Shown here: in pieces, positions 23,652 to 39,119 of the stretch
Numbering within the stretch: position 1 is the stretch's first letter
Layout of the letters: each line of letters opens with the position of its first letter
Source of the DNA: Shigella phage ESh7
Sequence record: ON528720
Length of the DNA stretch: 39,724 bases
Reading direction: 5' to 3' (one strand)
The notes under the pieces: generated by a model
Database searches by the model: none
Seen by the model: only the letters and a program-made list of their open reading frames with translations
What the model was told of the DNA's origin: nothing
Translations under genes and position numbers: made by a program

Positions 23652-26600
23652 ATGAGCTACGATAAGAACAAACCTAGCGAGTTCGATGGGTTATTTCAAA
23701 AAGCGGCAGACAAACATGGGGTCTCCTATGACCTGCTTCGTAAATTAGCATTCAACGAGTCCAGTTTCAATCCAAAGGCCAAATCGCCAACTGGCCCGAA
23801 GGGTCTCATGCAGTTCACCAAAGGTACAGCCACTGCGCTTGGCCTCAAGGTTACTGACGCTGATGATGATGACCGTTACAACCCTGAGTTGGCTGTGGAT
23901 GCAGCCGCTCGTCACCTGAGTGACCTCATTCGGAAGTACGATGGGGATGAACTCAAAGCCGCCTTGGCGTATAATCAGGGCGAGGGACGCAACGGTGCTC
24001 CGCAGATACAGGCTTATGATAAAGGCGATTGGGCCTCAATATCTGAGGAAGGTCGTAACTACATGCGTAACCTGATGGATGTAGCCAATAGCCCACGTAA
24101 GGGAGACTTGGAGGCGTTCGGTGGTATCACCCCAAAGGCTAAGGGTATTCCATCTGAGGAAGCCTTTGCGGGAATCGGGAAGAAGCAGACGGTAGGCACT
24201 GACCTGCCGGAGTCAACTGGATTCAAAGTGGAGGGTAAAGAGCAGCAAGCACCTAACGTGCCTTATGCTAAGGACTTTTGGGAAAAGACTGGAACAACAC
24301 TGGACGAGTTTAATTCTCGTTCAACCTTCTTCGGAATCGGAGATGCCACAAGTGCAGAACTTCACAACTCCGTATTGGGTGTGGCTTTTCGTGCCGCTCG
24401 TAGTGATGACGGTTTTGATTTATTCAAGGACACCATTACTCCGACTCGCTGGAACAGCCATACGTGGACTCCAGAAGAGTTAGAGCGTATCCGTAAGGAA
24501 GTGAAGAACCCATCGTACATCAACGTAGTCACTGGAGGCTCTCCTGAGAATCTGGACGCCCTCATTAAGATGGCGAATGACAACTACGAGATGGACGCGC
24601 GGTCTGCAGATGCTGGTGTTGGTGCCAAACTTACTGCTGGTATCGTCGGTGCTGGTGTAGACCCGCTGAGTTACGTGCCGCTAGTAGGCGTAGCCGGGAA
24701 GGGTCTCAAGGTGGTTAACAAGGCTTTCATTGTTGGTACTCAAAGTGCTGGCCTCGCTGTTGCCTCTGAGGGTATCCGTACATCAATCGCTGGTGGAGAA
24801 GCCCACTATGCTGATGCTGCTTTAGGCGGTCTGATGTTCGGTGCTGGTATGAGTGCAATCAGTGACGCTATCGCTGCTGGTATTCGTCGTTCCCGTGGGA
24901 CTGAGGTTGTTAATGACTTCGCTCCTATGGCACACCGATTGGAAGCCCGTGAGACCGCTCTGAACTCTGGTGGTGAAGACCTGACCCGTATGCCGAGCGA
25001 GAACCGTGTGTTCGACCGTGAGCACGCTGGCGTTGAGTATTCACCTCTGGAGACCGAGCCGGGTGCCGTTGTGTTACCTCAAGGTCAAATCCTGAGCGAC
25101 ACCAACCCGTTGAACCCTCAGACTCTTAGCGAGTTCGAGGCGGTCAACCCTGAGCGTGCCGCTCGTGGTATCTCTTTGGGCGGCTTCACTGAGATTGGCT
25201 TGAAGACTCTACGCTCTGAGAACCCGACTGTTCGCTCCATTGCGAGTGACCTTGTGCGTTCTCCAACAGGGATGGAATCAGGCTCTAATGGTAAGTTCGG
25301 TGCGACTGCTTCTGACATTAAGGAGCGGCTCCACGCGAACAATCAGCGCACCTACAATCAGCTTTATGATGCTGTGCGTACTGCAATGAAAGACCCCGAG
25401 TTCTCCACGGGTGGTGCCACAATGAGCCGTAAGGAAATCCGACAGGAAATCTACAAGCGTGCAGCCTTGGCGATTGAGCGACCTGAGCTTCAAGCAAACC
25501 TGACAAAGGGTGAGCGGAACGTGATGAACATACTCAAGCAGCACTTTGACCTCAAACGTGAAATCATGGAGAACCCGTCAATCTTCGGCAACACCAAGGC
25601 GGTCAGTATCTTCCCCGGCTCACGCCACAAGGGAACCTACGTGCCAAACGTGTACGACCGCGCTATCAAGATTGAGATGGTTAAACGTTACGGTAATGAT
25701 GGCTTGCAGCGAGCAATCGCGGAGTCATGGTTGACGTCTTATCGTGCTCGTCCAGAAGTCAAGGCGAGGGTCGATGAGTACCTGATGGAACTTAACGGTC
25801 TCAAATCCGTGCAGGAAGTTACGCCTGAGATGGTGCAGAAGCACGCGATGGATAAGGCGTATGGTATTTCACACACTGACCAGTTCTCTGCCTCCTCTGT
25901 CATTGATGATAACATTGAGGGTCTGGGGGGTATCGAGAACAACAACTTCTTGGAAGCCCGTAACATGTTCGACAGTGACATGGCGGTGACTCTTCCTGAC
26001 GGTAACACGTTCTCTGTGAATGACCTGCGTACCTATGACATGGCCGAAATTCTGCCTGCATACGACCGACGAGTAGATGGCGATGTTGCAATCATGGGCG
26101 GTTCCGGTAAGACTACCAAAGACCTGAAAGATGAAATCATGGCGCTGGATAAGCAGTCAGAGGGTAACGGCACACTGAAAGGTGAAGTGGAAGCTCTCAA
26201 GGACACCGTGAAGATTCTTACTGGTCGTGCTCGTAGGAACCCGGAAGGCGCTTGGGGTACAGCCCTGCGCTCCGTAAATGACCTCACGTTCTTTGCTAAG
26301 AACGCCTATATGGGCGCACAGAACGTTACTGAAATCGCTGGTATGCTGGCGAAGGGTAACGTCTCTGCGATAACTCATGGCATCCCTATGATTAACGATT
26401 GGGTCAACCGTGGTAAACCGCTTCGTGCCTCTGAGATTAGGGAGATACACGGGATGGTGTTCGGTAAGGAACTAGACCAACTAATCCGTCCGGGACGTGA
26501 AGACCACGTGCGCCGACTCCGGGAGTCTACGGACACCAGCGCTGCGGTTGCCAATGTGGTCGGTACGATTCGTTTCGGTACTCAAGAGTTGGCTGCACGC

Positions 26601-27614
26601 TCTCCTTGGACAATGCTCCTAAATGGAACATCAAACTACATTCTTGATGCTGCCCGTCAGGGTGTGCTTGGGGATGTGGCTGGAGCGGCCCTTGCTGGGA
26701 AAGCCTCTAAGTTCGGTAAGGCAAACTACCTTAAGTCTGCCTCTATCAGCCCTGAGCAGTGGAATGGAATCAAGCAGTTGTTCAGAGACCATGCGACTCG
26801 TGGAGAAGACGGTAAGTTCACAATTCGTGACAAACAGGCTTTCGCTAACGACCCACGTTCAATGGATTTGTGGCGACTTGCTGACAAGGTAGCTGATGAG
26901 ACTATACTGCGCCCTCACAAGGTTTCCTCACAGGACTCCAAAGCGTTCGGTGCAGGGGTGAAGATGGTGATGCAATTTAAGAACTTCGTCATCAAGTCCC
27001 TGAACTCCCGGTTTGTCCGTAGCTTCTACGAGGCAACGAAGAACAACCGAGCGTTAGACCAAGCGTTGACTCACATCATCTCTTTGGGTCTAGCTGGTGG
27101 TTACTACGTTGCGCAGGCGCACCTTAAGGCCGCAAGCCTACAGGAGCACAAACGTAAGGAGTACCTCAAGAACGCCCTTGACCCTAAGATGATTGCTCAT
27201 GCATCAATCTCTCGTAGTTCACACTTAGGCTCACCATTGAGTATCTACGACATGTTCGCTGGGATGGCTGGTAGTGATACCTATAAGTACACCCGCTCTA
27301 CGGTGCTCCCTAAAGAGTCCGAGAAGCGTGACCCTAACAAGGCAGTGACAGGTAGACAGGTGGCTTCAACTATCGCAGGTGCAGTTGGTGAGCAGGTTCC
27401 GGGTTTAGGTTTTGTGGGTTCTGTGGGCGCAACAGCTATTAACGCCGCTTCCCTGCTGTCTTCTCCAAACAAGGCTACCGCTCTGGAGTTCCGTACAGGA
27501 CTCTTCAACACCTCTCGTGAGTTGATTCCTAATGACCCGCTATCGCAGCAACTCATTATGAAAATCTACGAGGCCAACGGTATCCGCATAAAGGAGACGC
27601 CGAAGAAACAATAA
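23652..27614 (+). CDS. 16: internal virion protein D with N-terminal lytic transglycosylase domain
   Basis: 1320 aa; N-terminal ...PKGLMQFTKGTA...ALAYNQGEG resembles SLT domain; synteny. Confidence 0.9.
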   Translation: MSYDKNKPSEFDGLFQKAADKHGVSYDLLRKLAFNESSFNPKAKSPTGPKGLMQFTKGTATALGLKVTDADDDDRYNPELAVDAAARHLSDLIRKYDGDELKAALAYNQGEGRNGAPQIQAYDKGDWASISEEGRNYMRNLMDVANSPRKGDLEAFGGITPKAKGIPSEEAFAGIGKKQTVGTDLPESTGFKVEGKEQQAPNVPYAKDFWEKTGTTLDEFNSRSTFFGIGDATSAELHNSVLGVAFRAARSDDGFDLFKDTITPTRWNSHTWTPEELERIRKEVKNPSYINVVTGGSPENLDALIKMANDNYEMDARSADAGVGAKLTAGIVGAGVDPLSYVPLVGVAGKGLKVVNKAFIVGTQSAGLAVASEGIRTSIAGGEAHYADAALGGLMFGAGMSAISDAIAAGIRRSRGTEVVNDFAPMAHRLEARETALNSGGEDLTRMPSENRVFDREHAGVEYSPLETEPGAVVLPQGQILSDTNPLNPQTLSEFEAVNPERAARGISLGGFTEIGLKTLRSENPTVRSIASDLVRSPTGMESGSNGKFGATASDIKERLHANNQRTYNQLYDAVRTAMKDPEFSTGGATMSRKEIRQEIYKRAALAIERPELQANLTKGERNVMNILKQHFDLKREIMENPSIFGNTKAVSIFPGSRHKGTYVPNVYDRAIKIEMVKRYGNDGLQRAIAESWLTSYRARPEVKARVDEYLMELNGLKSVQEVTPEMVQKHAMDKAYGISHTDQFSASSVIDDNIEGLGGIENNNFLEARNMFDSDMAVTLPDGNTFSVNDLRTYDMAEILPAYDRRVDGDVAIMGGSGKTTKDLKDEIMALDKQSEGNGTLKGEVEALKDTVKILTGRARRNPEGAWGTALRSVNDLTFFAKNAYMGAQNVTEIAGMLAKGNVSAITHGIPMINDWVNRGKPLRASEIREIHGMVFGKELDQLIRPGREDHVRRLRESTDTSAAVANVVGTIRFGTQELAARSPWTMLLNGTSNYILDAARQGVLGDVAGAALAGKASKFGKANYLKSASISPEQWNGIKQLFRDHATRGEDGKFTIRDKQAFANDPRSMDLWRLADKVADETILRPHKVSSQDSKAFGAGVKMVMQFKNFVIKSLNSRFVRSFYEATKNNRALDQALTHIISLGLAGGYYVAQAHLKAASLQEHKRKEYLKNALDPKMIAHASISRSSHLGSPLSIYDMFAGMAGSDTYKYTRSTVLPKESEKRDPNKAVTGRQVASTIAGAVGEQVPGLGFVGSVGATAINAASLLSSPNKATALEFRTGLFNTSRELIPNDPLSQQLIMKIYEANGIRIKETPKKQ

Positions 27615-27632
27615 ACCCTCACTAAAGGGAGA
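27610..27632 (+). promoter_or_regulatory. T3 RNA polymerase promoter
   Basis: AATAAACCCTCACTAAAGGGAGAG; gene 16 stop inside it. Confidence 0.8.
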
Positions 27633-27685
27633 GAGGTCACATTCTGGCCTCTTCTCTCCTAATGCTAATTTATAAAGGAGGTCAC

Positions 27686-29635
27686 ATGGCTACAAATATT
27701 AAGACCGTGATGACTTACCCGCTGGATGGTTCAACTACGGACTTTAATATTCCGTTCGAGTATCTGGCTCGTAAGTTCGTCCGAGTGACCCTTATCGGTG
27801 TTGACCGAAAGGAACTCATCTTGAATAAAGACTATCGTTTTGCTACTAAGACCACAATCTCCACAACGAGAGCATTGGGGCCAGCGGACGGTTATAACAT
27901 GATTGAAATCCGTCGATTCACCTCCGCTACAGATAGGCTGGTTGACTTCACCGATGGTTCAATCCTTCGGGCATATGATTTGAACATATCTCAGGTTCAG
28001 ACCCTTCACGTTGCTGAGGAAGCCCGCGACCTTACCGCAGATACAATTGGCGTCAACAATGGTGGGAACTTGGATGCTCGTGGTCGTCGTATCGTGAACG
28101 TTGCGGATGCACAAGATGTAGGTGACGCAATCAACCTAGGTCAAATCCAACGATGGAACGACTCTGCGTTGAACTCTGCTAATCGAGCGAAACAGGAAGC
28201 TGACCGTGCAACTGCGCGTGCAAACGATGCGAACAACTCTGCGAACGCCTCAGCGTCCTCCGCTAGTGCCTCTTCTGTCTCCGCCGAATTAGCAAAACAG
28301 TGGGCCGTTAAGGAAACCGCTGTGGAGCCTAATCTCGAGTCATCACGAACCTACGCGCTTCACTCCATGTCATACCGGAATGAGGCTAAAGGCTCTGCCG
28401 ACCGTGCCGCTGTTTCAGAGACCAACGCTAAGGCCTCCGAAGGGAGCGCTACTAACTCGGCTGCTGCCGCTAAGGTCTCAGAGACCAACGCTAAGGCCTC
28501 CGAGGAGAGAGCAATCACTGAGGCGAGTAAGCTTGGAAGCATGAATGGGTTTGCTGGTGCAATCGACAGGGTTGAAGGTGTAAACGTGTGGTTCAAAGGG
28601 ACACTCGTGACTACCGAGAACATCACTGGAGGTTGGCTTATTTCCACAGGCCACGCTAATATTGGTAAAGGGCTTGCGGTTCAGGAGAATGGTACTTTCG
28701 GTATCGACTTAACAGTCCAGCGCGACATTTATGGAAATCGTAACATGACAGTCGCTGGTAACTCTTGGTTGCAGGGAGGCATTGTCCAGTCGGCAGCCTC
28801 CACCGTGTATAACCAGCTATATCGCCTTCACCTGAGCAGTACACCAATGCATGTAGGGAACCGTCAGGGTGTCCACATTGGATGGAACGAGTCTAACGGT
28901 AAAGGTGAAGCTGTCTTTTTGAATAACCAAGGCCGTGGTGATGGTGGGTTCGTGTTCCGTACAGTTAACGTCGCCAACTCAGTTGAGAAGGGTCGTGTCG
29001 AGTTTACTCAGGACGGTAACATCTATGCGAATCACCTACAGGTTCGTTCCGGTGCCAGAATTGATGGGAACAACAACATCGTAGGTCAGTACCTCCACGC
29101 AGGAATGGGCAACGCGATACTAAACCCGGATGGGAACCTTAGCGGCGGTGTGTGGAACAGCGTTGGTGGACACCTTTGGGGAATGCTCAACGACAACTAC
29201 AGGTTCGCCAAACCTCCTGCTGGGGTTCGCCTGTACACAGGCCGTGGCTCGGACTACATTGAGGGTAACGTTGATGGTAAGGCCGTTGGGTTCCGATGGT
29301 TCCTGTCAGACAGAAGGCTTAAAGAGAACATCAAGGTTGTTCGCTCTGCCGATGATATGCTCAATATTATCCGCTCGTATATTCCGGTTTCGTATAAATA
29401 TAAGGACTCTGAGTACGTTGACAACCGTGGGAATACTGTGACTGTCGCTGGTAAGAACTCTCGTGCTGGTTTCATTACTCAGGACTTGATTCGAATCTGG
29501 CCGGAGGCGGTTGATATAATGAGCGACGGTATGCAGTCTCCAGACCCGAACCAGATCATTGGCGGATTGATGCTACTTGTTAAGAACCTAGATGCTCGCG
29601 TTCAGGAGCTTGAATCTAAACTTATGACAGACTAA
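27686..29635 (+). CDS. 17: tail fibre protein with C-terminal intramolecular chaperone (peptidase S74-like) domain
   Basis: 649 aa from ATG 27686 (RBS AAAGGAGGT); N-terminus MATNIKTVMTYPLDGSTTDFNIPFEYLARKFV... like T7 gp17; C-terminus SDRRLKENI...VSYKYK...GFITQDL...PEAV...LVKNLDARVQELESKL. Confidence 0.9.
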   Translation: MATNIKTVMTYPLDGSTTDFNIPFEYLARKFVRVTLIGVDRKELILNKDYRFATKTTISTTRALGPADGYNMIEIRRFTSATDRLVDFTDGSILRAYDLNISQVQTLHVAEEARDLTADTIGVNNGGNLDARGRRIVNVADAQDVGDAINLGQIQRWNDSALNSANRAKQEADRATARANDANNSANASASSASASSVSAELAKQWAVKETAVEPNLESSRTYALHSMSYRNEAKGSADRAAVSETNAKASEGSATNSAAAAKVSETNAKASEERAITEASKLGSMNGFAGAIDRVEGVNVWFKGTLVTTENITGGWLISTGHANIGKGLAVQENGTFGIDLTVQRDIYGNRNMTVAGNSWLQGGIVQSAASTVYNQLYRLHLSSTPMHVGNRQGVHIGWNESNGKGEAVFLNNQGRGDGGFVFRTVNVANSVEKGRVEFTQDGNIYANHLQVRSGARIDGNNNIVGQYLHAGMGNAILNPDGNLSGGVWNSVGGHLWGMLNDNYRFAKPPAGVRLYTGRGSDYIEGNVDGKAVGFRWFLSDRRLKENIKVVRSADDMLNIIRSYIPVSYKYKDSEYVDNRGNTVTVAGKNSRAGFITQDLIRIWPEAVDIMSDGMQSPDPNQIIGGLMLLVKNLDARVQELESKLMTD

Positions 29636-29646
29636 GGAGGTGTTAA

Positions 29647-29850
29647 ATGTTATCCTTCGACTTCAACAATGAGGTCGTTAAGGCTGCTCCTATTGTTGGC
29701 ACAGGGGTCGCTGATGGGGCGGCCCGACTCTTTTGGGGACTATCGTTAAACGAGTGGTTCTACGTTGCAGCTATCGCCTACACAGTGGTTCAGATTGGTG
29801 CCAAGGTAGTCGATAAGATGATTGACTGGAAACGTGCAAACAAGGAGTAA
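29647..29850 (+). CDS. 17.5: holin (class II), gene 17.5 homolog
   Basis: 67 aa with hydrophobic segment FYVAAIAYTVVQIGA; same size as T7 gp17.5. Confidence 0.7.
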   Translation: MLSFDFNNEVVKAAPIVGTGVADGAARLFWGLSLNEWFYVAAIAYTVVQIGAKVVDKMIDWKRANKE

Positions 29851-30120: not shown

Positions 30121-30165
30121 GTGACATACTCAAGGTTCTCCACGCGGGGAGCCTTTATGGATGTT
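30121..30165 (+). promoter_or_regulatory. RNase III-type processing hairpin upstream of gene 18.5
   Basis: CATACTCAAGGTTCTCCACGCGGGGAGCCTTTATGGATG shares the conserved motif. Confidence 0.4.
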
Positions 30166-30210
30166 ATTTGGTGCATCTACGTGAAATCTAAAAAACTGAT
30201 GGGAGGTGTT

Positions 30211-30663
30211 ATGCTAAAACTTTTACGCAGCGCACTCCCTTGGGTACTCGCCGGGACACTCTTTATGGGTGGCTGGCACTTAGGGTCAACCCATGAGAGA
30301 GCAAACTGGAAGGAGGTAATCCAAAATGAATACATTGCGAAAACAAAGGCAACCGCAGCAACTCAGGCAGAGGTCAGTAGGGTATCCCGTGAGTACCAAG
30401 AAGAGATTGCAGCCATTGAAGGCAGCACTGATAGGATGCTTAATGACCTGCGTAGTAATAATAAGCGGCTGTCAGTCCGCATCAAAACCCTTACCGGACT
30501 ACCAGAAGATAACGGTAGATGCGAGTTTAATGGTCGAGCCGAACTACACGAGTCAGATGCTAAGCGTATTATCGGAATAACCCAAGCTGCCGATGCTCAC
30601 GTAAGAGCGCTCCAGCGTACTATTAAGGAGATGCAGAATGAGCGACACCCAAGCAAACCGTAA
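30211..30663 (+). CDS. 18.5: i-spanin (Rz-like)
   Basis: 150 aa from ATG 30211 (RBS GGGAGGTG); [25 protein letters not shown] matches T7 gp18.5 N-terminus pattern. Confidence 0.8.
30326..30580 (+). CDS. 18.7: o-spanin lipoprotein (Rz1-like), nested in +1 frame of 18.5
   Basis: 84 aa; lipobox-like VVIISGC; C-terminus [17 protein letters not shown] parallels T7 gp18.7. Confidence 0.7.
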   Translation: MNTLRKQRQPQQLRQRSVGYPVSTKKRLQPLKAALIGCLMTCVVIISGCQSASKPLPDYQKITVDASLMVEPNYTSQMLSVLSE

Positions 30664-32401
30664 TGCGCTAATCATTGCGCAGCTTAAGGGTGACTTCGTG
30701 GCCTTCCTGTTCGTATTGTGGAAGGCTTTGGCTCTCCCGCCGCCGACTAAGTGTCAGATTGATATGGCCCGGTGTCTGGCTAACGGAGACAACAAGAAGT
30801 TTATCCTACAGGCTTTCCGTGGTATCGGTAAGTCATTCATCACCTGTGCGTTCGTTGTGTGGACGTTATGGCGTGACCCTCAGTTGAAGATACTAATTGT
30901 CTCTGCATCCAAAGAACGTGCGGACGCTAACTCCATCTTCATCAAGAACATCATTGACCTGCTGCCCTTCTTGGCTGAGCTAAAGCCTCGCCCCGGTCAG
31001 CGTGACTCTGTGATTAGTTTCGATGTTGGCCCTGCCAAGCCTGACCACTCTCCGTCTGTGAAGTCGGTGGGTATCACTGGTCAGTTGACTGGTAGTCGTG
31101 CTGATATCATCATAGCGGATGACGTTGAGATTCCGTCTAACTCCGCAACTCAAGGTGCCCGTGAGAAGCTGTGGACTCTGGTGCAGGAATTTGCCGCACT
31201 ACTGAAACCGCTGCCGACTTCTCGCGTTATCTACCTTGGTACGCCTCAAACCGAAATGACCTTGTACAAGGAACTCGAAGATAACCGTGGGTACACCACA
31301 ATCATCTGGCCTGCGCTCTATCCGCGTAGCCGTGAGGAAGACCTGTACTATGGCGACCGTCTGGCCCCGATGCTCCGCGAAGAGTTCAACGATGGGTTCG
31401 AGATGCTCCAAGGTCAACCAACTGACCCCGTGCGCTTCGATATGGAAGACCTGCGTGAGCGTGAGTTGGAATACGGTAAGGCTGGCTTCACTTTGCAGTT
31501 CATGCTCAACCCGAACCTGAGTGATGCCGAGAAGTACCCCTTACGCCTCCGTGACGCTATCGTGTGCGGTCTGGACTTCGAGAAAGCCCCAATGCATTAC
31601 CAGTGGCTTCCGAACCGTCAGAATCGCAATGAAGAGCTTCCTAACGTGGGACTTAAGGGTGATGATATTCATAGCTATCATTCGTGCAGCCAGAACACTG
31701 GACAGTATCAGCAACGCATCCTCGTGATTGACCCTAGTGGTCGCGGTAAGGATGAGACTGGTTACGCAGTGTTGTTCACCCTGAATGGCTACATCTATCT
31801 GATGGAAGCTGGCGGGTTCCGCGATGGTTATTCTGATAAGACCCTTGAGTCCCTCGCTAAGAAAGCGAAGCAGTGGAAGGTTCAGACAGTGGTCTTCGAG
31901 AGTAACTTCGGGGATGGTATGTTTGGTAAGGTATTCAGCCCGGTTCTCCTGAAACACCATGCAGCGCAGCTTGAAGAGATTCGTGCTCGTGGTATGAAGG
32001 AACTACGAATTTGTGATACGCTGGAACCTGTACTCTCTACGCACCGCCTTGTGATTCGTGACGAGGTGATTCGTGAGGACTACCAGACTGCCCGTGACGC
32101 TGATGGCAAGCATGATGTTCGCTATTCGCTGTTCTACCAGTTGACCCGCATGGCTCGTGAGAAGGGCGCTGTGGCCCATGATGACCGACTTGATGCGTTA
32201 GCATTGGGTGTGGAGTTCTTACGCTCTACGATGGAACTGGACGCTGTGAAGGTGGAGGCTGAGGTGCTTGAGGCGTTCTTAGAGGAACACATGGAGCACC
32301 CAATCCATTCGGCTGGTCATGTAGTTACCTCTATGGTTGACGGTATAGAACTCTATTGGGAGTATGACGATGTGAATAGCAACAGGTTCATTGACTGGTA
32401 G
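30638..32401 (+). CDS. 19: terminase large subunit
   Basis: 587 aa; synteny; ATPase/nuclease-size protein at the end of the late region. Confidence 0.95.
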
Positions 32402-33982: not shown

Positions 33983-34441
33983 ATGATTTTCACTAAAGAG
34001 CCTGCTAACGTCTTCTATGTACTGGTGTCAGCTTTCCGTTCAAACCTTGATGATGAGGTGAACATGAGTCGCCACCGCCACATTGTTAGCACTTTACGTG
34101 CCGCACCGGGTCTTTATGGCTCCATTGAGTCAACCGATTTGACCGGGTGCTATCGTGGGGCAATCGCAAGCGCACCGACTGAGGAAAAAACGGTTCGTGT
34201 ACGCTGCAAGGACAAGGCGCAGGCACTGAATGTTGCACGCTTAGCTTGCAATGAGTGGGAGCAAGATTGCGTACTGGTATACAAATCACAGACTCACACG
34301 GCTGGTCTGGTGTACGCTAAAGGAATCGACGGTTACAAGGCTGAACGTCTGCCGGGTAGCTTCCAAGAGGTGCCTAAAGGCGCACCGCTTCAAGGCTGCT
34401 TTACGATTGATGAGTTCGGACGCCGCTGGCAAGTGCAATAA
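33983..34441 (+). CDS. 0.3: S-adenosyl-L-methionine cleaving enzyme (T3 SAMase, anti-restriction)
   Basis: 152 aa, MIFTKEPANVFYVLVSAFRSNL...QGCFTIDEFGRRWQVQ; I recognise this as T3 gp0.3; first gene after early promoters. Confidence 0.85.
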   Translation: MIFTKEPANVFYVLVSAFRSNLDDEVNMSRHRHIVSTLRAAPGLYGSIESTDLTGCYRGAIASAPTEEKTVRVRCKDKAQALNVARLACNEWEQDCVLVYKSQTHTAGLVYAKGIDGYKAERLPGSFQEVPKGAPLQGCFTIDEFGRRWQVQ

Positions 34442-35257: not shown

Positions 35258-36394
35258 ATGACTTTCACCGAAGCACAAGCCGCACTCGAAGCTATCCGCA
35301 ACCTACCGATTGAGCTCCTGAACGAACGCCAGTCCATGCTGGTGGCTCTTGCGGCTGCTATCGTGAACGATGAGACTCAAGACGGCGAACTGACGCAGGC
35401 CAATGTCAATTGGGGTCTGGAGTATATGGGCTACTGGCAGACACTGGCGGAGCGTATGCGTGATGTTGGATTTGTACGCTTGGGTAACGGTCACTTTAGC
35501 GCAGCATATGAGCACGCATTGTTACCGGGCAAGGTTATCAAGGTAGGCTTTAAGAAAGAGGATTCAGGCGCTGCCTATGCCGCATTCTGCCGTATGAATC
35601 AGGGTCGTGAGGGTATCCCTACGGTGTACGACATTCAGCGTCATACAGGCTGCTACACGGTGGTCTTGGACTATCTGACACCGCTTAACGATGGGTGCTA
35701 CGGTGAAAGTGATAAGATTCGCCACCACTTTCAGGCCGCACGGGAAATCATTGAGGAGGGTTGCTTCGACACCGCCGAAGAGTACCCGATAAGCGAGGGC
35801 TTTATTGAGACCTGCAAGGATATCCGCAAGTTCTTCTTAGGCATCGCATCGTTCGATTGTCACAGCGGTAACATGATGAAAGACCAAATGGGACGCTTGA
35901 TTATCACAGACCCGGTGTCATTCAGCGCAGCCAACAAGTTAAAGCCGGGTGAGTTCCACTGTGACCCTGATGAGCTCATCGCTGAGATTGAGGCGCTGAG
36001 GGCGCAGGAAGCGATTGACCGCTGTAAGGCACGCAAGGCACGCCGTGACCCTAAAGGAACCTTTCAGGTAGCGCGTAAAGCACGCATCAAGTGGCGCAGA
36101 AAGGCCTCTAAGCGTAGGAAGCGCAACGCTAAGGTACGCGCTAAGATGCGCAACGCTAAGGTACGCGCTAAGATGCGCATGGATGCCAACGAGCAGCGCA
36201 GGGCCGAGCCTAGGGCGCGTATGATGTGGGGTGATACGCACTGGCGCAACGTTTGGATGCAGAATATGATTGTTGACTTCGAACGGCTCGAACTGTTAGC
36301 AGCCGCACAGATGGCACAGATAGACCACAAGGCTATCGCATGGAACTCTCCGCTGTGTGTCGATAAGTACCTTGACAGGAGACTGCAAGGCTGA
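35258..36394 (+). CDS. 0.7: serine/threonine protein kinase / host transcription shut-off protein
   Basis: 378 aa; GNGHFSAAYEHALLPGKVIKVGFKKEDSGAAYAAFCRM...GCYTVVLD...CKDIRKFFLGIASFDCHSGNMM tracks T7 gp0.7 closely as I recall it. Confidence 0.85.
   Translation: MTFTEAQAALEAIRNLPIELLNERQSMLVALAAAIVNDETQDGELTQANVNWGLEYMGYWQTLAERMRDVGFVRLGNGHFSAAYEHALLPGKVIKVGFKKEDSGAAYAAFCRMNQGREGIPTVYDIQRHTGCYTVVLDYLTPLNDGCYGESDKIRHHFQAAREIIEEGCFDTAEEYPISEGFIETCKDIRKFFLGIASFDCHSGNMMKDQMGRLIITDPVSFSAANKLKPGEFHCDPDELIAEIEALRAQEAIDRCKARKARRDPKGTFQVARKARIKWRRKASKRRKRNAKVRAKMRNAKVRAKMRMDANEQRRAEPRARMMWGDTHWRNVWMQNMIVDFERLELLAAAQMAQIDHKAIAWNSPLCVDKYLDRRLQG
36121..36174 (+). repeat. perfect in-frame 27-bp tandem duplication inside gene 0.7
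   Basis: GCGCAACGCTAAGGTACGCGCTAAGAT x2 (36121-36147, 36148-36174), encoding RNAKVRAKM twice. Confidence 0.9.
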
Positions 36395-36464: not shown

Positions 36465-39119
36465 ATGAACATCATCGAAACTATCGAAAAGAATGACTTC
36501 TCCGAAATCGAACTGGCTGCTATCCCGTTCAACACACTGGCAGACCACTACGGCAGCGCATTGGCTCGTGAACAACTGGCTTTAGAGCACGAGTCTTATG
36601 AGCTAGGCGAGCGCCGCTTCCTCAAGATGCTTGAGCGTCAAGCGAAAGCTGGTGAGATTGCAGACAACGCAGCCGCTAAGCCGTTACTCGCTACGCTTCT
36701 CCCTAAGTTAACCGCACGCATCGTTGAGTGGCTCGAAGAGTACGCCTCTAAGAAAGGCCGCAAGCCTGTAGCCTATGCACCACTCCAATCACTCAAGCCG
36801 GAGGCGTCCGCGTTTATCACGCTCAAGGTCATCCTTGCGTCACTGACCAGCACGAACATGACAACCATTCAGGCCGCTGCTGGTATGCTAGGGAAGGCCA
36901 TTGAGGATGAGGCACGTTTCGGGCGCATCCGTGACCTCGAAGCGAAGCACTTCAAGAAGCACGTTGAGGAACAGCTTAACAAGCGCCACGGGCAAGTCTA
37001 CAAGAAAGCCTTTATGCAGGTGGTCGAGGCCGATATGATTGGTCGAGGTCTGCTTGGTGGCGAGGCGTGGTCTAGCTGGGATAAAGAAACCACGATGCAC
37101 GTAGGGATTCGCCTGATTGAAATGCTGATTGAGTCCACGGGTCTGGTGGAATTACAGCGCCACAACGCAGGTAACGCAGGCTCTGACCATGAGGCACTAC
37201 AACTGGCCCAAGAGTACGTGGACGTCTTAGCGAAGCGTGCAGGCGCTCTGGCGGGTATCTCTCCGATGTTCCAACCGTGTGTCGTACCGCCGAAACCTTG
37301 GGTAGCAATCACAGGTGGCGGCTATTGGGCGAACGGTCGCAGACCTTTGGCGCTCATTCGCACTCACTCTAAGAAGGGACTGATGCGCTATGATGATGTT
37401 TACATGCCAGAAGTTTACAAGGCGGTCAACATCGCACAGAACACCGCATGGAAAATCAACAAGAAAGTCCTCTCGGTTGTCAACGAGATTGTGAACTGGA
37501 AGAACTGCCCGGTCGCAGACATTCCATCGCTGGAGCGCCAAGAGTTACCACCTAAGCCGGACGACATTGACACCAACGAGGCAGCACTCAGGGAGTGGAA
37601 GAAAGCCGCCGCTGGTGTCTACCGCTTGGACAAGGCACGAGTGTCTCGCCGTATCAGCTTAGAGTTCATGCTGGAGCAGGCCAACAAGTTTGCAAACAAG
37701 AAAGCAATCTGGTTCCCTTACAACATGGACTGGCGCGGTCGTGTGTACGCTGTGCCTATGTTCAACCCGCAAGGCAACGACATGACGAAAGGTCTGCTGA
37801 CCCTCGCTAAAGGAAAGCCAATCGGTGAGGAAGGTTTCTACTGGCTGAAAATCCACGGCGCGAACTGTGCGGGTGTCGATAAGGTTCCTTTCCCTGAGCG
37901 CATCGCGTTCATTGAGAAGCACGTAGACGACATTCTGGCTTGCGCTAAAGACCCAATCAATAACACTTGGTGGGCCGAGCAGGATTCACCTTTCTGTTTC
38001 CTAGCGTTTTGCTTCGAGTATGCAGGCGTTGCGCACCACGGTCTGAGCTACAATTGCTCTCTGCCGCTGGCGTTCGACGGGTCTTGCTCTGGTATCCAGC
38101 ACTTCTCCGCTATGCTCCGCGATGAGGTAGGCGGTCGTGCGGTTAACCTGCTGCCAAGCGAAACCGTGCAGGACATTTACGGCATCGTTGCACAGAAAGT
38201 AAACGAGATTCTCAAACAGGATGCAATCAACGGCACACCTAACGAGATGATTACCGTGACCGACAATGACACCGGGGAAATCTCAGAGAAGCTCAAGCTG
38301 GGAACCTCAACGCTGGCGCAACAGTGGCTGGCATATGGTGTAACCCGTAGCGTAACTAAACGTTCGGTCATGACGCTGGCTTACGGTTCCAAGGAGTTCG
38401 GCTTTCGTCAACAGGTACTGGACGACACCATTCAGCCTGCGATTGACAGCGGTAAGGGCTTGATGTTCACCCAACCTAACCAAGCGGCTGGCTACATGGC
38501 TAAGCTGATTTGGGACGCGGTGAGCGTGACCGTAGTCGCAGCGGTCGAGGCGATGAACTGGCTCAAGTCTGCCGCTAAGCTGCTGGCTGCTGAGGTCAAG
38601 GACAAGAAGACCAAGGAGATTCTGCGTCACCGTTGCGCGGTTCACTGGACTACGCCGGACGGCTTCCCGGTCTGGCAGGAATACCGCAAGCCACTCCAGA
38701 AGCGTCTCGATATGATTTTCTTAGGGCAATTCCGTCTGCAACCGACGATTAATACCCTCAAGGATTCAGGCATTGACGCACACAAGCAGGAGTCTGGCAT
38801 CGCTCCTAACTTTGTTCACTCACAGGACGGTAGCCACCTCCGCATGACAGTAGTTTATGCTCACGAGAAGTATGGCATTGAGTCCTTTGCGCTCATCCAT
38901 GACAGCTTCGGGACTATCCCGGCAGACGCTGGTAAGCTGTTCAAAGCTGTACGTGAGACGATGGTTATCACCTACGAGAACAACGATGTGCTGGCAGACT
39001 TCTATGACCAGTTTGCAGACCAGCTACACGAGACCCAACTGGACAAGATGCCTCCGCTTCCGAAGAAAGGGAACCTGAACCTCCAAGACATTCTCAAGTC
39101 TGACTTTGCCTTTGCATAA
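36465..39119 (+). CDS. 1: single-subunit DNA-directed RNA polymerase
   Basis: 884 aa (T3 RNAP length as I recall it); motifs PMFQPCVVPPKPW, DGSCSGIQHFSAMLRDE, HDSFGT; C-terminal FAFA. Confidence 0.97.
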   Translation: MNIIETIEKNDFSEIELAAIPFNTLADHYGSALAREQLALEHESYELGERRFLKMLERQAKAGEIADNAAAKPLLATLLPKLTARIVEWLEEYASKKGRKPVAYAPLQSLKPEASAFITLKVILASLTSTNMTTIQAAAGMLGKAIEDEARFGRIRDLEAKHFKKHVEEQLNKRHGQVYKKAFMQVVEADMIGRGLLGGEAWSSWDKETTMHVGIRLIEMLIESTGLVELQRHNAGNAGSDHEALQLAQEYVDVLAKRAGALAGISPMFQPCVVPPKPWVAITGGGYWANGRRPLALIRTHSKKGLMRYDDVYMPEVYKAVNIAQNTAWKINKKVLSVVNEIVNWKNCPVADIPSLERQELPPKPDDIDTNEAALREWKKAAAGVYRLDKARVSRRISLEFMLEQANKFANKKAIWFPYNMDWRGRVYAVPMFNPQGNDMTKGLLTLAKGKPIGEEGFYWLKIHGANCAGVDKVPFPERIAFIEKHVDDILACAKDPINNTWWAEQDSPFCFLAFCFEYAGVAHHGLSYNCSLPLAFDGSCSGIQHFSAMLRDEVGGRAVNLLPSETVQDIYGIVAQKVNEILKQDAINGTPNEMITVTDNDTGEISEKLKLGTSTLAQQWLAYGVTRSVTKRSVMTLAYGSKEFGFRQQVLDDTIQPAIDSGKGLMFTQPNQAAGYMAKLIWDAVSVTVVAAVEAMNWLKSAAKLLAAEVKDKKTKEILRHRCAVHWTTPDGFPVWQEYRKPLQKRLDMIFLGQFRLQPTINTLKDSGIDAHKQESGIAPNFVHSQDGSHLRMTVVYAHEKYGIESFALIHDSFGTIPADAGKLFKAVRETMVITYENNDVLADFYDQFADQLHETQLDKMPPLPKKGNLNLQDILKSDFAFA

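What the first reader, a model, noticed from the sequence alone, without database searches (positions are those of the whole stretch)
27686..29635. Mosaic tail fibre: T7-like N-terminal anchor fused to a distal region ending in an auto-cleaving intramolecular chaperone domain
The first ~150 residues follow the conserved T7/T3 gp17 tail-attachment domain (MATNIKTVMTYPLDGS...FEYLARKF...RAYDLN...HVAEEARDLT...GRRIVN). After that the protein changes character: an Ala/Ser/Asn-rich shaft with a 26-nt segment repeated 63 bp apart (28415-28440 and 28478-28503, VSETNAKASE twice), then a Gly/Asn-rich region, then a C-terminus SDRRLKENIKVV...VSYKYKDSEYVDNRGNTV...GFITQDLIRIWPEAVD...LVKNLDARVQELESKL. That last block has the hallmark motifs of the C-terminal intramolecular chaperone (peptidase S74) domain of endosialidases and phage L-shaped tail fibres, which trimerises the fibre and cleaves itself off at the Ser of S-D-x-R-L-K. 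The T7 fibre, as I recall it (553 aa), ends in a small tip domain with no such module. This is the receptor-binding determinant, so it is the most likely place for host-range novelty in this genome.
Basis: partly seen in the sequence, partly recalled or inferred. Interest (0 to 1): 0.55.

Follow-up and report, generated by a model that had tools for sequence, protein, structure and literature searches.

The report
phiYeO3-12-type self-cleaving phage tail fibre
This gene encodes the tail fibre of a T3/phiYeO3-12-like phage, with a T7-type anchor and a C-terminal chaperone domain that cuts itself off; the design is already known and shown experimentally in phiYeO3-12, so only the receptor-binding allele is new.

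Summary
Window 27686-29635 (+) is gene 17, 649 aa. It has a Phage_T7_tail domain (residues 1-155, E 3e-57), an Ala/Ser/Asn-rich shaft with an exact 26-nt repeat 63 nt apart, a Gly/Asn-rich distal region, and a Peptidase_S74 intramolecular chaperone domain (541-609, E 6e-12). Ser541, Asp542 and Lys546 are invariant in 54 homologues.

It is not unusual for its lineage. The window is a whole phiYeO3-12-like Teetrevirus genome. phiYeO3-12, AP5, phiCFP-1, vB_Yep_15, ESh8 and about 100 database clusters share the full architecture (phrog_9502, end to end). Self-cleavage of phiYeO3-12 gp17 into about 58 kDa plus about 12 kDa, and its binding to the O:3 O-antigen, are published. The fragments predicted here are 57.97 and 12.35 kDa.

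Mosaicism is real but lies within the family. Up to about nt 28500 the gene follows phiYeO3-12 and AP5 (92-99%). From there to the stop codon it follows ESh8 and vB_Yep_15 (92-97%), while phiYeO3-12 falls to 51-78%. The exact protein is absent from public collections; the best match is 93%.

Verdict: a new allele of a known fibre type, of low interest.

The parts
27611..27633 (+). T3-type late promoter ahead of gene 17 (AATAAACCCTCACTAAAGGGAGA), overlapping the stop of gene 16
   Evidence: Sequence read. Promoter phi17 is annotated at the same position in phiYeO3-12. That the sequence matches the T3 RNA polymerase promoter consensus is from my own knowledge.
27674..27682 (+). Shine-Dalgarno AAAGGAGGT, 3 nt before the ATG at 27686
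   Evidence: The same AAAGGAGGTcacATG context is listed for the fibre gene of Citrobacter phage SH1/SH2 in PMC4925675.
27686..29635 (+). Gene 17, tail fibre precursor, 649 aa, 70.3 kDa
   Evidence: phrog_9502 matches 1-648 against 1-647 of 647 positions, E = 0. It lies between gene 16 (23652-27614) and the holin gene 17.5 (29647-29850), as in phiYeO3-12.
27686..28150 (+). Residues 1-155: T7-type tail-attachment domain
   Evidence: PF03906 E 3.3e-57. Solved T7 gp17 N-terminal structures 7boz, 8e4g and 8dsp match with E 1e-85 to 5e-72. Residues 1-140 are 96% identical to phiYeO3-12 and 80% to T3 and T7.
28151..28555 (+). Residues 156-290: Ala/Ser/Asn-rich shaft, inferred to be a coiled-coil rod
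   Evidence: Composition. Weak but continuous homology to the T7 gp17 rod up to residue 309. That the T7 rod is a coiled coil is established knowledge (Steven et al. 1988, cited as ref 19 in PMC7582827).
28412..28449 (+). Direct repeat copy 1 (VSETNAKASE at residues 243-252)
28475..28512 (+). Direct repeat copy 2 (VSETNAKASE at residues 264-273), 63 nt or 21 codons downstream, which equals three heptads
   Evidence: Both copies are conserved in phiYeO3-12, AP5, phiCFP-1 and vB_Yep_15.
28450..28560 (.). Recombination breakpoint zone at the shaft/distal junction
   Evidence: Sliding identity in 150-nt bins. The bin starting at 28350 is 92% to phiYeO3-12 and 94% to AP5. The bin starting at 28500 drops to 67% and 66%, while vB_Yep_15, phiCFP-1 and ESh8 are at 92-93%.
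28556..29305 (+). Residues 291-540: Gly/Asn-rich distal region, the inferred receptor-binding part and the C-terminus of the mature fibre
   Evidence: No Pfam domain. It is the most variable part among relatives. The AF2 monomer model is mostly beta and coil. O-antigen binding is shown for the orthologue in PMC8739404.
29306..29308 (+). Ser541 codon (TCA), inferred nucleophile and first residue of the released fragment
   Evidence: Invariant in 54 homologues. It aligns with residue 1 of the crystallised released GA-1 chaperone 3gud.
29321..29323 (+). Lys546 codon (AAA), inferred general base of the Ser-Lys dyad
   Evidence: Invariant in 54 homologues. The Ser+5 spacing matches the endosialidase and T5 chaperone domains (from my own knowledge of Schulz et al. 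2010).
29306..29632 (+). Residues 541-649: intramolecular chaperone (Peptidase_S74) domain, 12.35 kDa, ending in a long helix
   Evidence: PF13884 E 5.6e-12. A profile search hits 8jov (1.2e-12), 7dc3 (3.6e-7), 6f45 (1e-6) and 3gud (8e-4). A helix is predicted at model residues 332-359, protein residues 621-648. Mass.

Best explanation
This is gene 17 of a phiYeO3-12-like (Teetrevirus-type) podophage. It encodes a homotrimeric tail fibre precursor of the phiYeO3-12 type. Residues 1-155 dock the fibre to the tail. Residues 156-290 form the helical shaft. Residues 291-540 form the distal part that binds the host surface, most likely an LPS O-antigen. Residues 541-649 are an intramolecular chaperone that helps the three chains trimerise and fold. 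The chaperone then removes itself by Ser541/Lys546-mediated cleavage of the Leu540-Ser541 bond, leaving a fibre of about 58 kDa in the virion. The present allele arose by homologous recombination within this fibre family: the anchor and shaft resemble phiYeO3-12 and AP5, and the distal part plus chaperone resemble ESh8 and vB_Yep_15. What is shown here is the domain content, the invariant dyad, family membership and the recombination pattern. What is inferred from orthologues is the cleavage itself, its exact bond, the trimeric state and the receptor class.
For: Domain content: PF03906 at 1-155 and PF13884 at 541-609, both above their gathering scores. Full-length match to phrog_9502. Gene order 16 / 17 / 17.5 holin / 18 / 18.5 / 19 is the same as in phiYeO3-12. 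The backbone is 95-96% identical to phiYeO3-12 and Patroon. Ser541, Asp542 and Lys546 are invariant in 54 homologues down to 32% identity. A profile of residues 521-649 finds solved S74-type domains, and the first residue of the released GA-1 chaperone aligns on Ser541. The predicted products are 57.97 and 12.35 kDa. The orthologue phiYeO3-12 gp17 is 85% identical over 541-609. It runs at about 58 kDa with a band of about 11 kDa (PMC7582827), and mass spectrometry gives a 12.242 kDa fragment (PMC8739404). A fragment starting at its Ser539 calculates to 12,258.8 Da, the closest of all start positions. The same paper shows binding to the O:3 O-antigen and none to a rough mutant. Recombination: the sliding identity pattern and the per-segment protein identities.
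Against: No experiment exists on this protein itself. Fold-level confirmation failed: the AF2 monomer models had pLDDT 68.5 and 54.7, and Foldseek gave no hit at E <= 0.001. The published 12.242 kDa differs by about 17 Da from the mass calculated for cleavage before Ser539, so the exact bond is not proven. The receptor cannot be named: the closest distal domains come from phages isolated on Shigella, Yersinia, Citrobacter and Klebsiella.
Confidence: 0.9

Rival explanations
1. The S74-like domain is a degenerate remnant that is not cleaved and stays on the mature fibre as its tip.
For: Cleavage was not observed for this protein. The Pfam score is moderate at 46 bits, and fold searches were inconclusive.
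Against: Ser541, Asp542 and Lys546 are invariant across 54 homologues. The orthologue, 85% identical in this domain, self-cleaves in E. coli.
Confidence: 0.04
2. The distal region 291-540 is an enzyme (an O-antigen or capsule depolymerase, as in tailspikes) and not a passive binding fibre.
For: Intramolecular chaperone domains were first described on endosialidase tailspikes (cited in PMC7582827). The distal region has no Pfam assignment, so a function cannot be excluded by annotation.
Against: There is no match to any enzymatic family. Only 250 residues are available, which is short for a beta-helix depolymerase. The top fold-search entries, though not significant, are fibres (Mu, T4 gp34, T5 pb1) and not spikes. 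The related Bas102 protein is described as a simple tail fibre (PMC11990801).
Confidence: 0.05
3. The mosaic pattern is an assembly chimera of two co-occurring related phages and not a real recombinant gene.
For: The switch of closest relative falls inside a gene that is conserved on both sides. The origin of the window is unknown, and the exact protein is in no collection.
Against: The reading frame is intact. The junction falls at a domain boundary that is also used in other isolates: phiCFP-1 and vB_Yep_15 show related exchanges. Proteins of 88-93% identity over the full length occur on independent contigs of 28-39 kb (P0002-P0004).
Confidence: 0.04

Closest known systems
Yersinia phage phiYeO3-12 gp17 (CAB63638.1, 645 aa), with vB_YenP_AP5 gp17
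   Same: Same gene position, same Pfam pair PF03906 plus PF13884 and the same SDRRLKE cleavage motif. Overall identity is 78% for phiYeO3-12 and 83% for AP5. Residues 1-200 are 95-96% identical. The shaft repeat VSETNAK is conserved.
   Different: The distal region 291-400 is only 50-51% identical and 401-470 is 68-71%, so receptor specificity is probably different. The gene is followed by an 11-nt spacer before the holin, against 52 nt in phiYeO3-12.
Shigella phage ESh8 and Yersinia phage vB_Yep_15 tail fibres
   Same: These are the closest distal halves: 92% and 90% protein identity over residues 286-649, and 92-97% nucleotide identity over 28500-29640.
   Different: vB_Yep_15 carries a T7/T3-type anchor, only 80% identical over residues 1-140, on a Teseptimavirus backbone. 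The ESh8 record is split inside the gene.
T7 gp17 and T3 gp17 (553 and 558 aa)
   Same: The anchor domain is 80% identical. The rod is homologous up to residue 309. Gene position is the same.
   Different: T3 ends in gp37_trimer plus gp37_C domains and has no S74 domain. Identity is 15-33% beyond residue 140. No self-cleavage is known for T7 or T3.
Intramolecular chaperone domains of endosialidase K1F (3gw6), GA-1 neck appendage (3gud) and T5 L-shaped fibre pb1 (4uw8)
   Same: C-terminal position on a trimeric fibre or spike, a Ser-x4-Lys motif at the domain start, and a long C-terminal helix. The profile hit to 3gud has E 8e-4.
   Different: They are attached to unrelated passenger domains. 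Sequence similarity is low, and the fold match could not be confirmed with the monomer models.
Klebsiella phage Patroon-type fibre (555 aa plus a downstream 128-aa ORF)
   Same: The backbone is nearly identical, 96%, and the anchor domain is the same.
   Different: It has no S74 domain. An extra small ORF of unknown function follows the fibre gene.

Membership tests
Peptidase_S74 / C-terminal intramolecular chaperone domain | Profile match above the curated threshold | tested here: met
   PF13884 E 5.6e-12, 46.2 bits against a cut-off of 22, residues 541-609 on profile positions 1-57 of 58.
Peptidase_S74 / C-terminal intramolecular chaperone domain | Ser nucleophile at the domain start with Lys five residues downstream (Ser-Lys dyad) | tested here: met
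   S541-D-R-R-L-K546. Ser, Asp and Lys are invariant in 54 homologues. The Ser aligns with residue 1 of the released chaperone 3gud.
Peptidase_S74 / C-terminal intramolecular chaperone domain | Homology to solved members | tested here: met
   A profile of residues 521-649 hits 8jov at 1.2e-12, MYRF 7dc3 at 3.6e-7, 6f45 at 1e-6 and 3gud at 8e-4.
Peptidase_S74 / C-terminal intramolecular chaperone domain | Three-dimensional fold like 3gw6 or 3gud, with a C-terminal helix forming a trimeric bundle | tested here: inconclusive
   The monomer AF2 models are of low confidence (pLDDT 68.5 and 54.7). Foldseek gives no hit at E <= 0.001, and 3gw6 appears only at E 0.64. A long terminal helix is predicted at residues 621-648.
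Peptidase_S74 / C-terminal intramolecular chaperone domain | Autoproteolytic release after trimer folding | not testable with these tools
   Shown for the orthologue phiYeO3-12 gp17 by SDS-PAGE and mass spectrometry (PMC7582827, PMC8739404). The predicted products here are 57.97 and 12.35 kDa.
T7-type tail fibre gp17 | N-terminal tail-attachment domain | tested here: met
   PF03906 E 3.3e-57. T7 gp17 structures match at E 1e-85.
T7-type tail fibre gp17 | Position between gene 16 and the holin gene 17.5, behind a phage RNA polymerase promoter | tested here: met
T7-type tail fibre gp17 | T7/T3-type pyramid and tip domains (gp37_trimer, gp37_C) | tested here: not met
   These domains are absent here and present in T3. 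Identity to T3 and T7 is 15-23% over residues 291-609.
phiYeO3-12-type gp17 (phrog_9502) | End-to-end match to the family profile and collinear alignment with its members | tested here: met
   phrog_9502 E = 0, 1-648 on 1-647 of 647. The alignment with phiYeO3-12, AP5, phiCFP-1 and vB_Yep_15 shows 78-89% identity with only small gaps.

The most novel reading that the evidence does not exclude
The distal region (residues about 291-540) is at most about 93% identical to any known sequence, and its nearest relatives come from phages of four host genera. It may recognise a surface polysaccharide or host not covered by the characterised members, which are the O:3 O-antigen for phiYeO3-12 and AP5 and the O16 O-antigen for Bas102. 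If so, it would be a new specificity on a well-understood, swappable scaffold.
Probability: 0.3. Interest if true: 0.25.

Novelty: new member of a known kind. Interest (0 to 1): 0.12.

Why it matters
It matters little beyond annotation. The gene can be annotated with confidence as a tail fibre with a self-cleaving C-terminal chaperone, with mature protein 1-540. Anyone expressing it for host detection or fibre engineering should know this, because C-terminal tags would be lost. The breakpoints at about residue 140 and about residues 272-290 mark natural junctions for fibre swapping among T3- and T7-like phages. No open question is advanced.

Tried and rejected
(1) Fold confirmation. AF2 on residues 290-649 gave pLDDT 68.5 and pTM 0.40, and on residues 521-649 gave pLDDT 54.7. 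Foldseek against the PDB gave no significant hit for either model. A monomer model of an intertwined trimer is unsuitable, so I treat this as inconclusive and not as negative evidence.

(2) A single-sequence PDB search with residues 521-649 gave only marginal hits, E 0.035-0.43. The profile search was needed.

(3) NCBIfam has no model for this protein.

(4) Tandem Repeats Finder found no array in the gene, so the repeat is a single duplication.

(5) The upstream ATG at 27662 was rejected as the start, because the ribosome-binding site lies inside that extension and no homologue has it.

(6) Exact-sequence look-up found nothing, so neither host nor phage name could be recovered.

(7) A weak second phmmer stretch to the T7 tip (query 465-522 against T7 427-479) has an independent E-value of 210. 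I rejected it as evidence of homology.

(8) I considered whether the chaperone module was newly acquired from another phage family. I rejected this because it is conserved, 80-97% identical, in all phiYeO3-12-type fibres.

Full report
OBSERVATION. The mechanical ORF list starts it at an upstream ATG at 27662. However, the Shine-Dalgarno sequence AAAGGAGGT lies at 27674-27682, inside that extension, and all homologues begin MAT(N/T)IKTV. The start at 27686 is therefore correct. A T3-type promoter sequence, AATAAACCCTCACTAAAGGGAGA, lies at 27611-27633 and overlaps the stop of gene 16. Promoter phi17 is annotated at the same position in phiYeO3-12.

The repeat is real. It is a 38-nt direct repeat at 28412-28449 and 28475-28512, 89% identical and 63 nt apart. 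It is one duplication of 21 codons, or three heptads, and not an array. It is conserved in relatives. Composition changes as described.

WHAT THE WINDOW IS. The first 24 kb are 95-96% identical to Klebsiella phage Patroon, Yersinia phage phiYeO3-12 and many other Teetrevirus genomes. The match starts at about phiYeO3-12 coordinate 6537. The last 9.7 kb carry the terminase, then the genome ends, then the early genes up to the RNA polymerase, at 95-97% identity to the same group. The window is therefore a whole, circularly permuted phiYeO3-12-like genome. The ORF is its gene 17, lying between gene 16 (23652-27614) and the holin gene 17.5 (29647-29850).

DOMAINS. Pfam gives Phage_T7_tail at residues 1-155 (E 3.3e-57) and Peptidase_S74, 'chaperone of endosialidase', at 541-609 (E 5.6e-12, 46.2 bits against a gathering score of 22). 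Solved T7 gp17 structures match the N-terminus at E 1e-85, and the alignment to T7 continues through the shaft to residue 309. So the Ala/Ser/Asn-rich rod is also part of the T7 design, although identity falls from 80% to about 25-33% after residue 140.

In an alignment of 54 family members reaching down to 32% identity, Ser541, Asp542 and Lys546 are invariant (position n in that alignment is residue n+289). A profile of residues 521-649 finds four solved S74-type domains:
- tail fibre 8jov, E 1.2e-12
- the autoproteolytic domain of myelin regulatory factor 7dc3, E 3.6e-7
- the phage S16 fibre 6f45, E 1e-6
- the released chaperone of GA-1, 3gud, E 8e-4, whose first residue (SDERHK...) aligns on Ser541

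As controls, T3 gp17 has gp37_trimer plus gp37_C and no S74 domain, and phiYeO3-12 gp17 has exactly the same Pfam pair as the window's protein.

FOLD LEVEL. This test failed to add anything. The monomer AlphaFold2 models were of moderate to low confidence (pLDDT 68.5 and 54.7), and Foldseek found nothing at E <= 0.001. For the larger model the top-ranked entries were all phage fibres (Mu, T4 gp34, T5 pb1 with its chaperone), but TM-scores of 0.1-0.2 carry no weight. A long terminal helix at residues 621-648 is predicted, which is consistent with the family but no more than that.

HOW IT MOST LIKELY WORKS. By homology to T7, the N-terminal domain docks a gp17 trimer to the tail and the shaft forms a helical rod. 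The distal 250 residues carry receptor binding. The last 109 residues act as an intramolecular chaperone that nucleates trimer folding and then removes itself.

This last step is inferred here but shown for the orthologue. Recombinant phiYeO3-12 gp17 has a theoretical mass of 69.4 kDa but runs at about 58 kDa with a separate band of about 11 kDa (PMC7582827). Mass spectrometry of an MBP fusion gives 100.846 kDa plus 12.242 kDa (PMC8739404). I calculated the C-terminal fragments of phiYeO3-12 gp17. The one starting at Ser539 is 12,258.8 Da, the closest to the published value; it is 17 Da off, while neighbouring start positions are off by 70 Da or more. Ser539 aligns with Ser541 here. The products predicted for the window's protein are 57.97 kDa (1-540) and 12.35 kDa (541-649).

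The same paper shows that phiYeO3-12 gp17 binds the O:3 O-antigen and does not bind a rough mutant. The BASEL study describes a T7-like fibre with a C-terminal intramolecular chaperone (Bas102) in a phage that depends on the O16 O-antigen (PMC11990801). The Bas102 fibre matches 99% of the window's distal part at 61% identity. An O-antigen receptor is therefore the best guess for this allele, but the specific one cannot be named.

MOSAICISM. At protein level the closest full-length deposited fibre is vB_Yep_15, at 89%. The best cluster among 5.8 billion proteins is 93% identical, and the exact sequence is absent from the 15-billion-sequence collection.

Per-segment identities and sliding nucleotide identity show the following pattern:
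- Gene 16 and gene 17 up to about nt 28500 follow phiYeO3-12 and AP5 at 92-99%.
- From about 28500 to the stop codon the gene follows ESh8 and vB_Yep_15 at 92-97%, while phiYeO3-12 and AP5 fall to 51-80% in most bins.
- From 29700 onward all relatives return to 96-99%.

The left breakpoint sits at the shaft/distal junction, about residues 272-290. A second natural junction lies at about residue 140. vB_Yep_15, a Teseptimavirus, carries a T7/T3-type anchor on the same shaft, distal part and chaperone.

The closest backbone relative, Patroon, has a different solution altogether: a 555-aa fibre without an S74 domain, followed by an extra 128-aa ORF with no family match. But the exchange that produced this allele took place between members of one established fibre family, and the chaperone domain is among its more conserved parts, at 80-97% identity.

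COMPARISON AND NOVELTY. About 100 clusters in the protein database carry the PF03906 plus PF13884 pair at similar length, and PHROGs holds a full-length family, phrog_9502. Deposited phages with this fibre come from Yersinia, Enterobacter, Citrobacter, Klebsiella, Shigella, Serratia and Escherichia hosts. The S74 annotation of phiYeO3-12 gp17, its self-cleavage and its receptor are all published. The finding is a correct reading of the sequence, but it describes the ordinary fibre of the phiYeO3-12 group. What is new is only an allele whose distal part is 7-10% diverged from its nearest known relatives.

VERDICT. Novelty: a new member of a known kind. Interest: 0.12.

Noticed in passing
window 1-39724: The window is a complete, circularly permuted phiYeO3-12-like genome. 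It starts at about phiYeO3-12 coordinate 6537. The genome ends and early genes (SAM hydrolase-like ORF 33983-34441, kinase 35258-36394, RNA polymerase 36465-39119) lie after the terminase gene at 30638-32401.
   Followed up: partly
L008 958-3030 (Klebsiella phage Patroon, MK608335.1 33957-36029): The closest backbone relative (96%) carries a 555-aa fibre with no S74 domain, followed by an extra 128-aa ORF that matches no Pfam or NCBIfam family. This may be a separate fibre chaperone or adaptor that replaces the intramolecular one.
   Followed up: partly
L002 1501-3450 (Yersinia phage vB_Yep_15): This phage has a reciprocal mosaic. A T7/T3-type anchor (residues 1-140) is joined at about residue 140 to the same shaft, distal part and chaperone as in the window. 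The whole module therefore moves between Teseptimavirus and Teetrevirus backbones.
   Followed up: partly
window 29636-29646: Only 11 nt separate the fibre stop codon from the holin start, as in AP5, vB_Yep_15 and ESh8. phiYeO3-12 has 52 nt and phiCFP-1 has 48 nt. The right-hand recombination boundary therefore includes the intergenic spacer.
   Followed up: no
L001 2501-4438 (phiYeO3-12 gp17): The published mass of the released fragment, 12.242 kDa (PMC8739404), is about 17 Da lighter than the 12,258.8 Da calculated for a fragment starting at Ser539. This could be measurement error or a chemical modification at the new N-terminus.
   Followed up: no
window 30121-30663 and 30326-30580: There is a nested pair of + strand ORFs in different frames, corresponding to genes 18.5 and 18.7 (Rz/Rz1-like spanins) as annotated in phiYeO3-12. 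This is ordinary for the lineage.
   Followed up: no
P0035 (Yersinia phage phiYe-F10 tail fibre, 549 aa): The deposited protein covers only 85% of the query, although the phiYe-F10 DNA matches the whole gene (H5 covers 1-1950). The annotated start or a frameshift in that record may be wrong.
   Followed up: no
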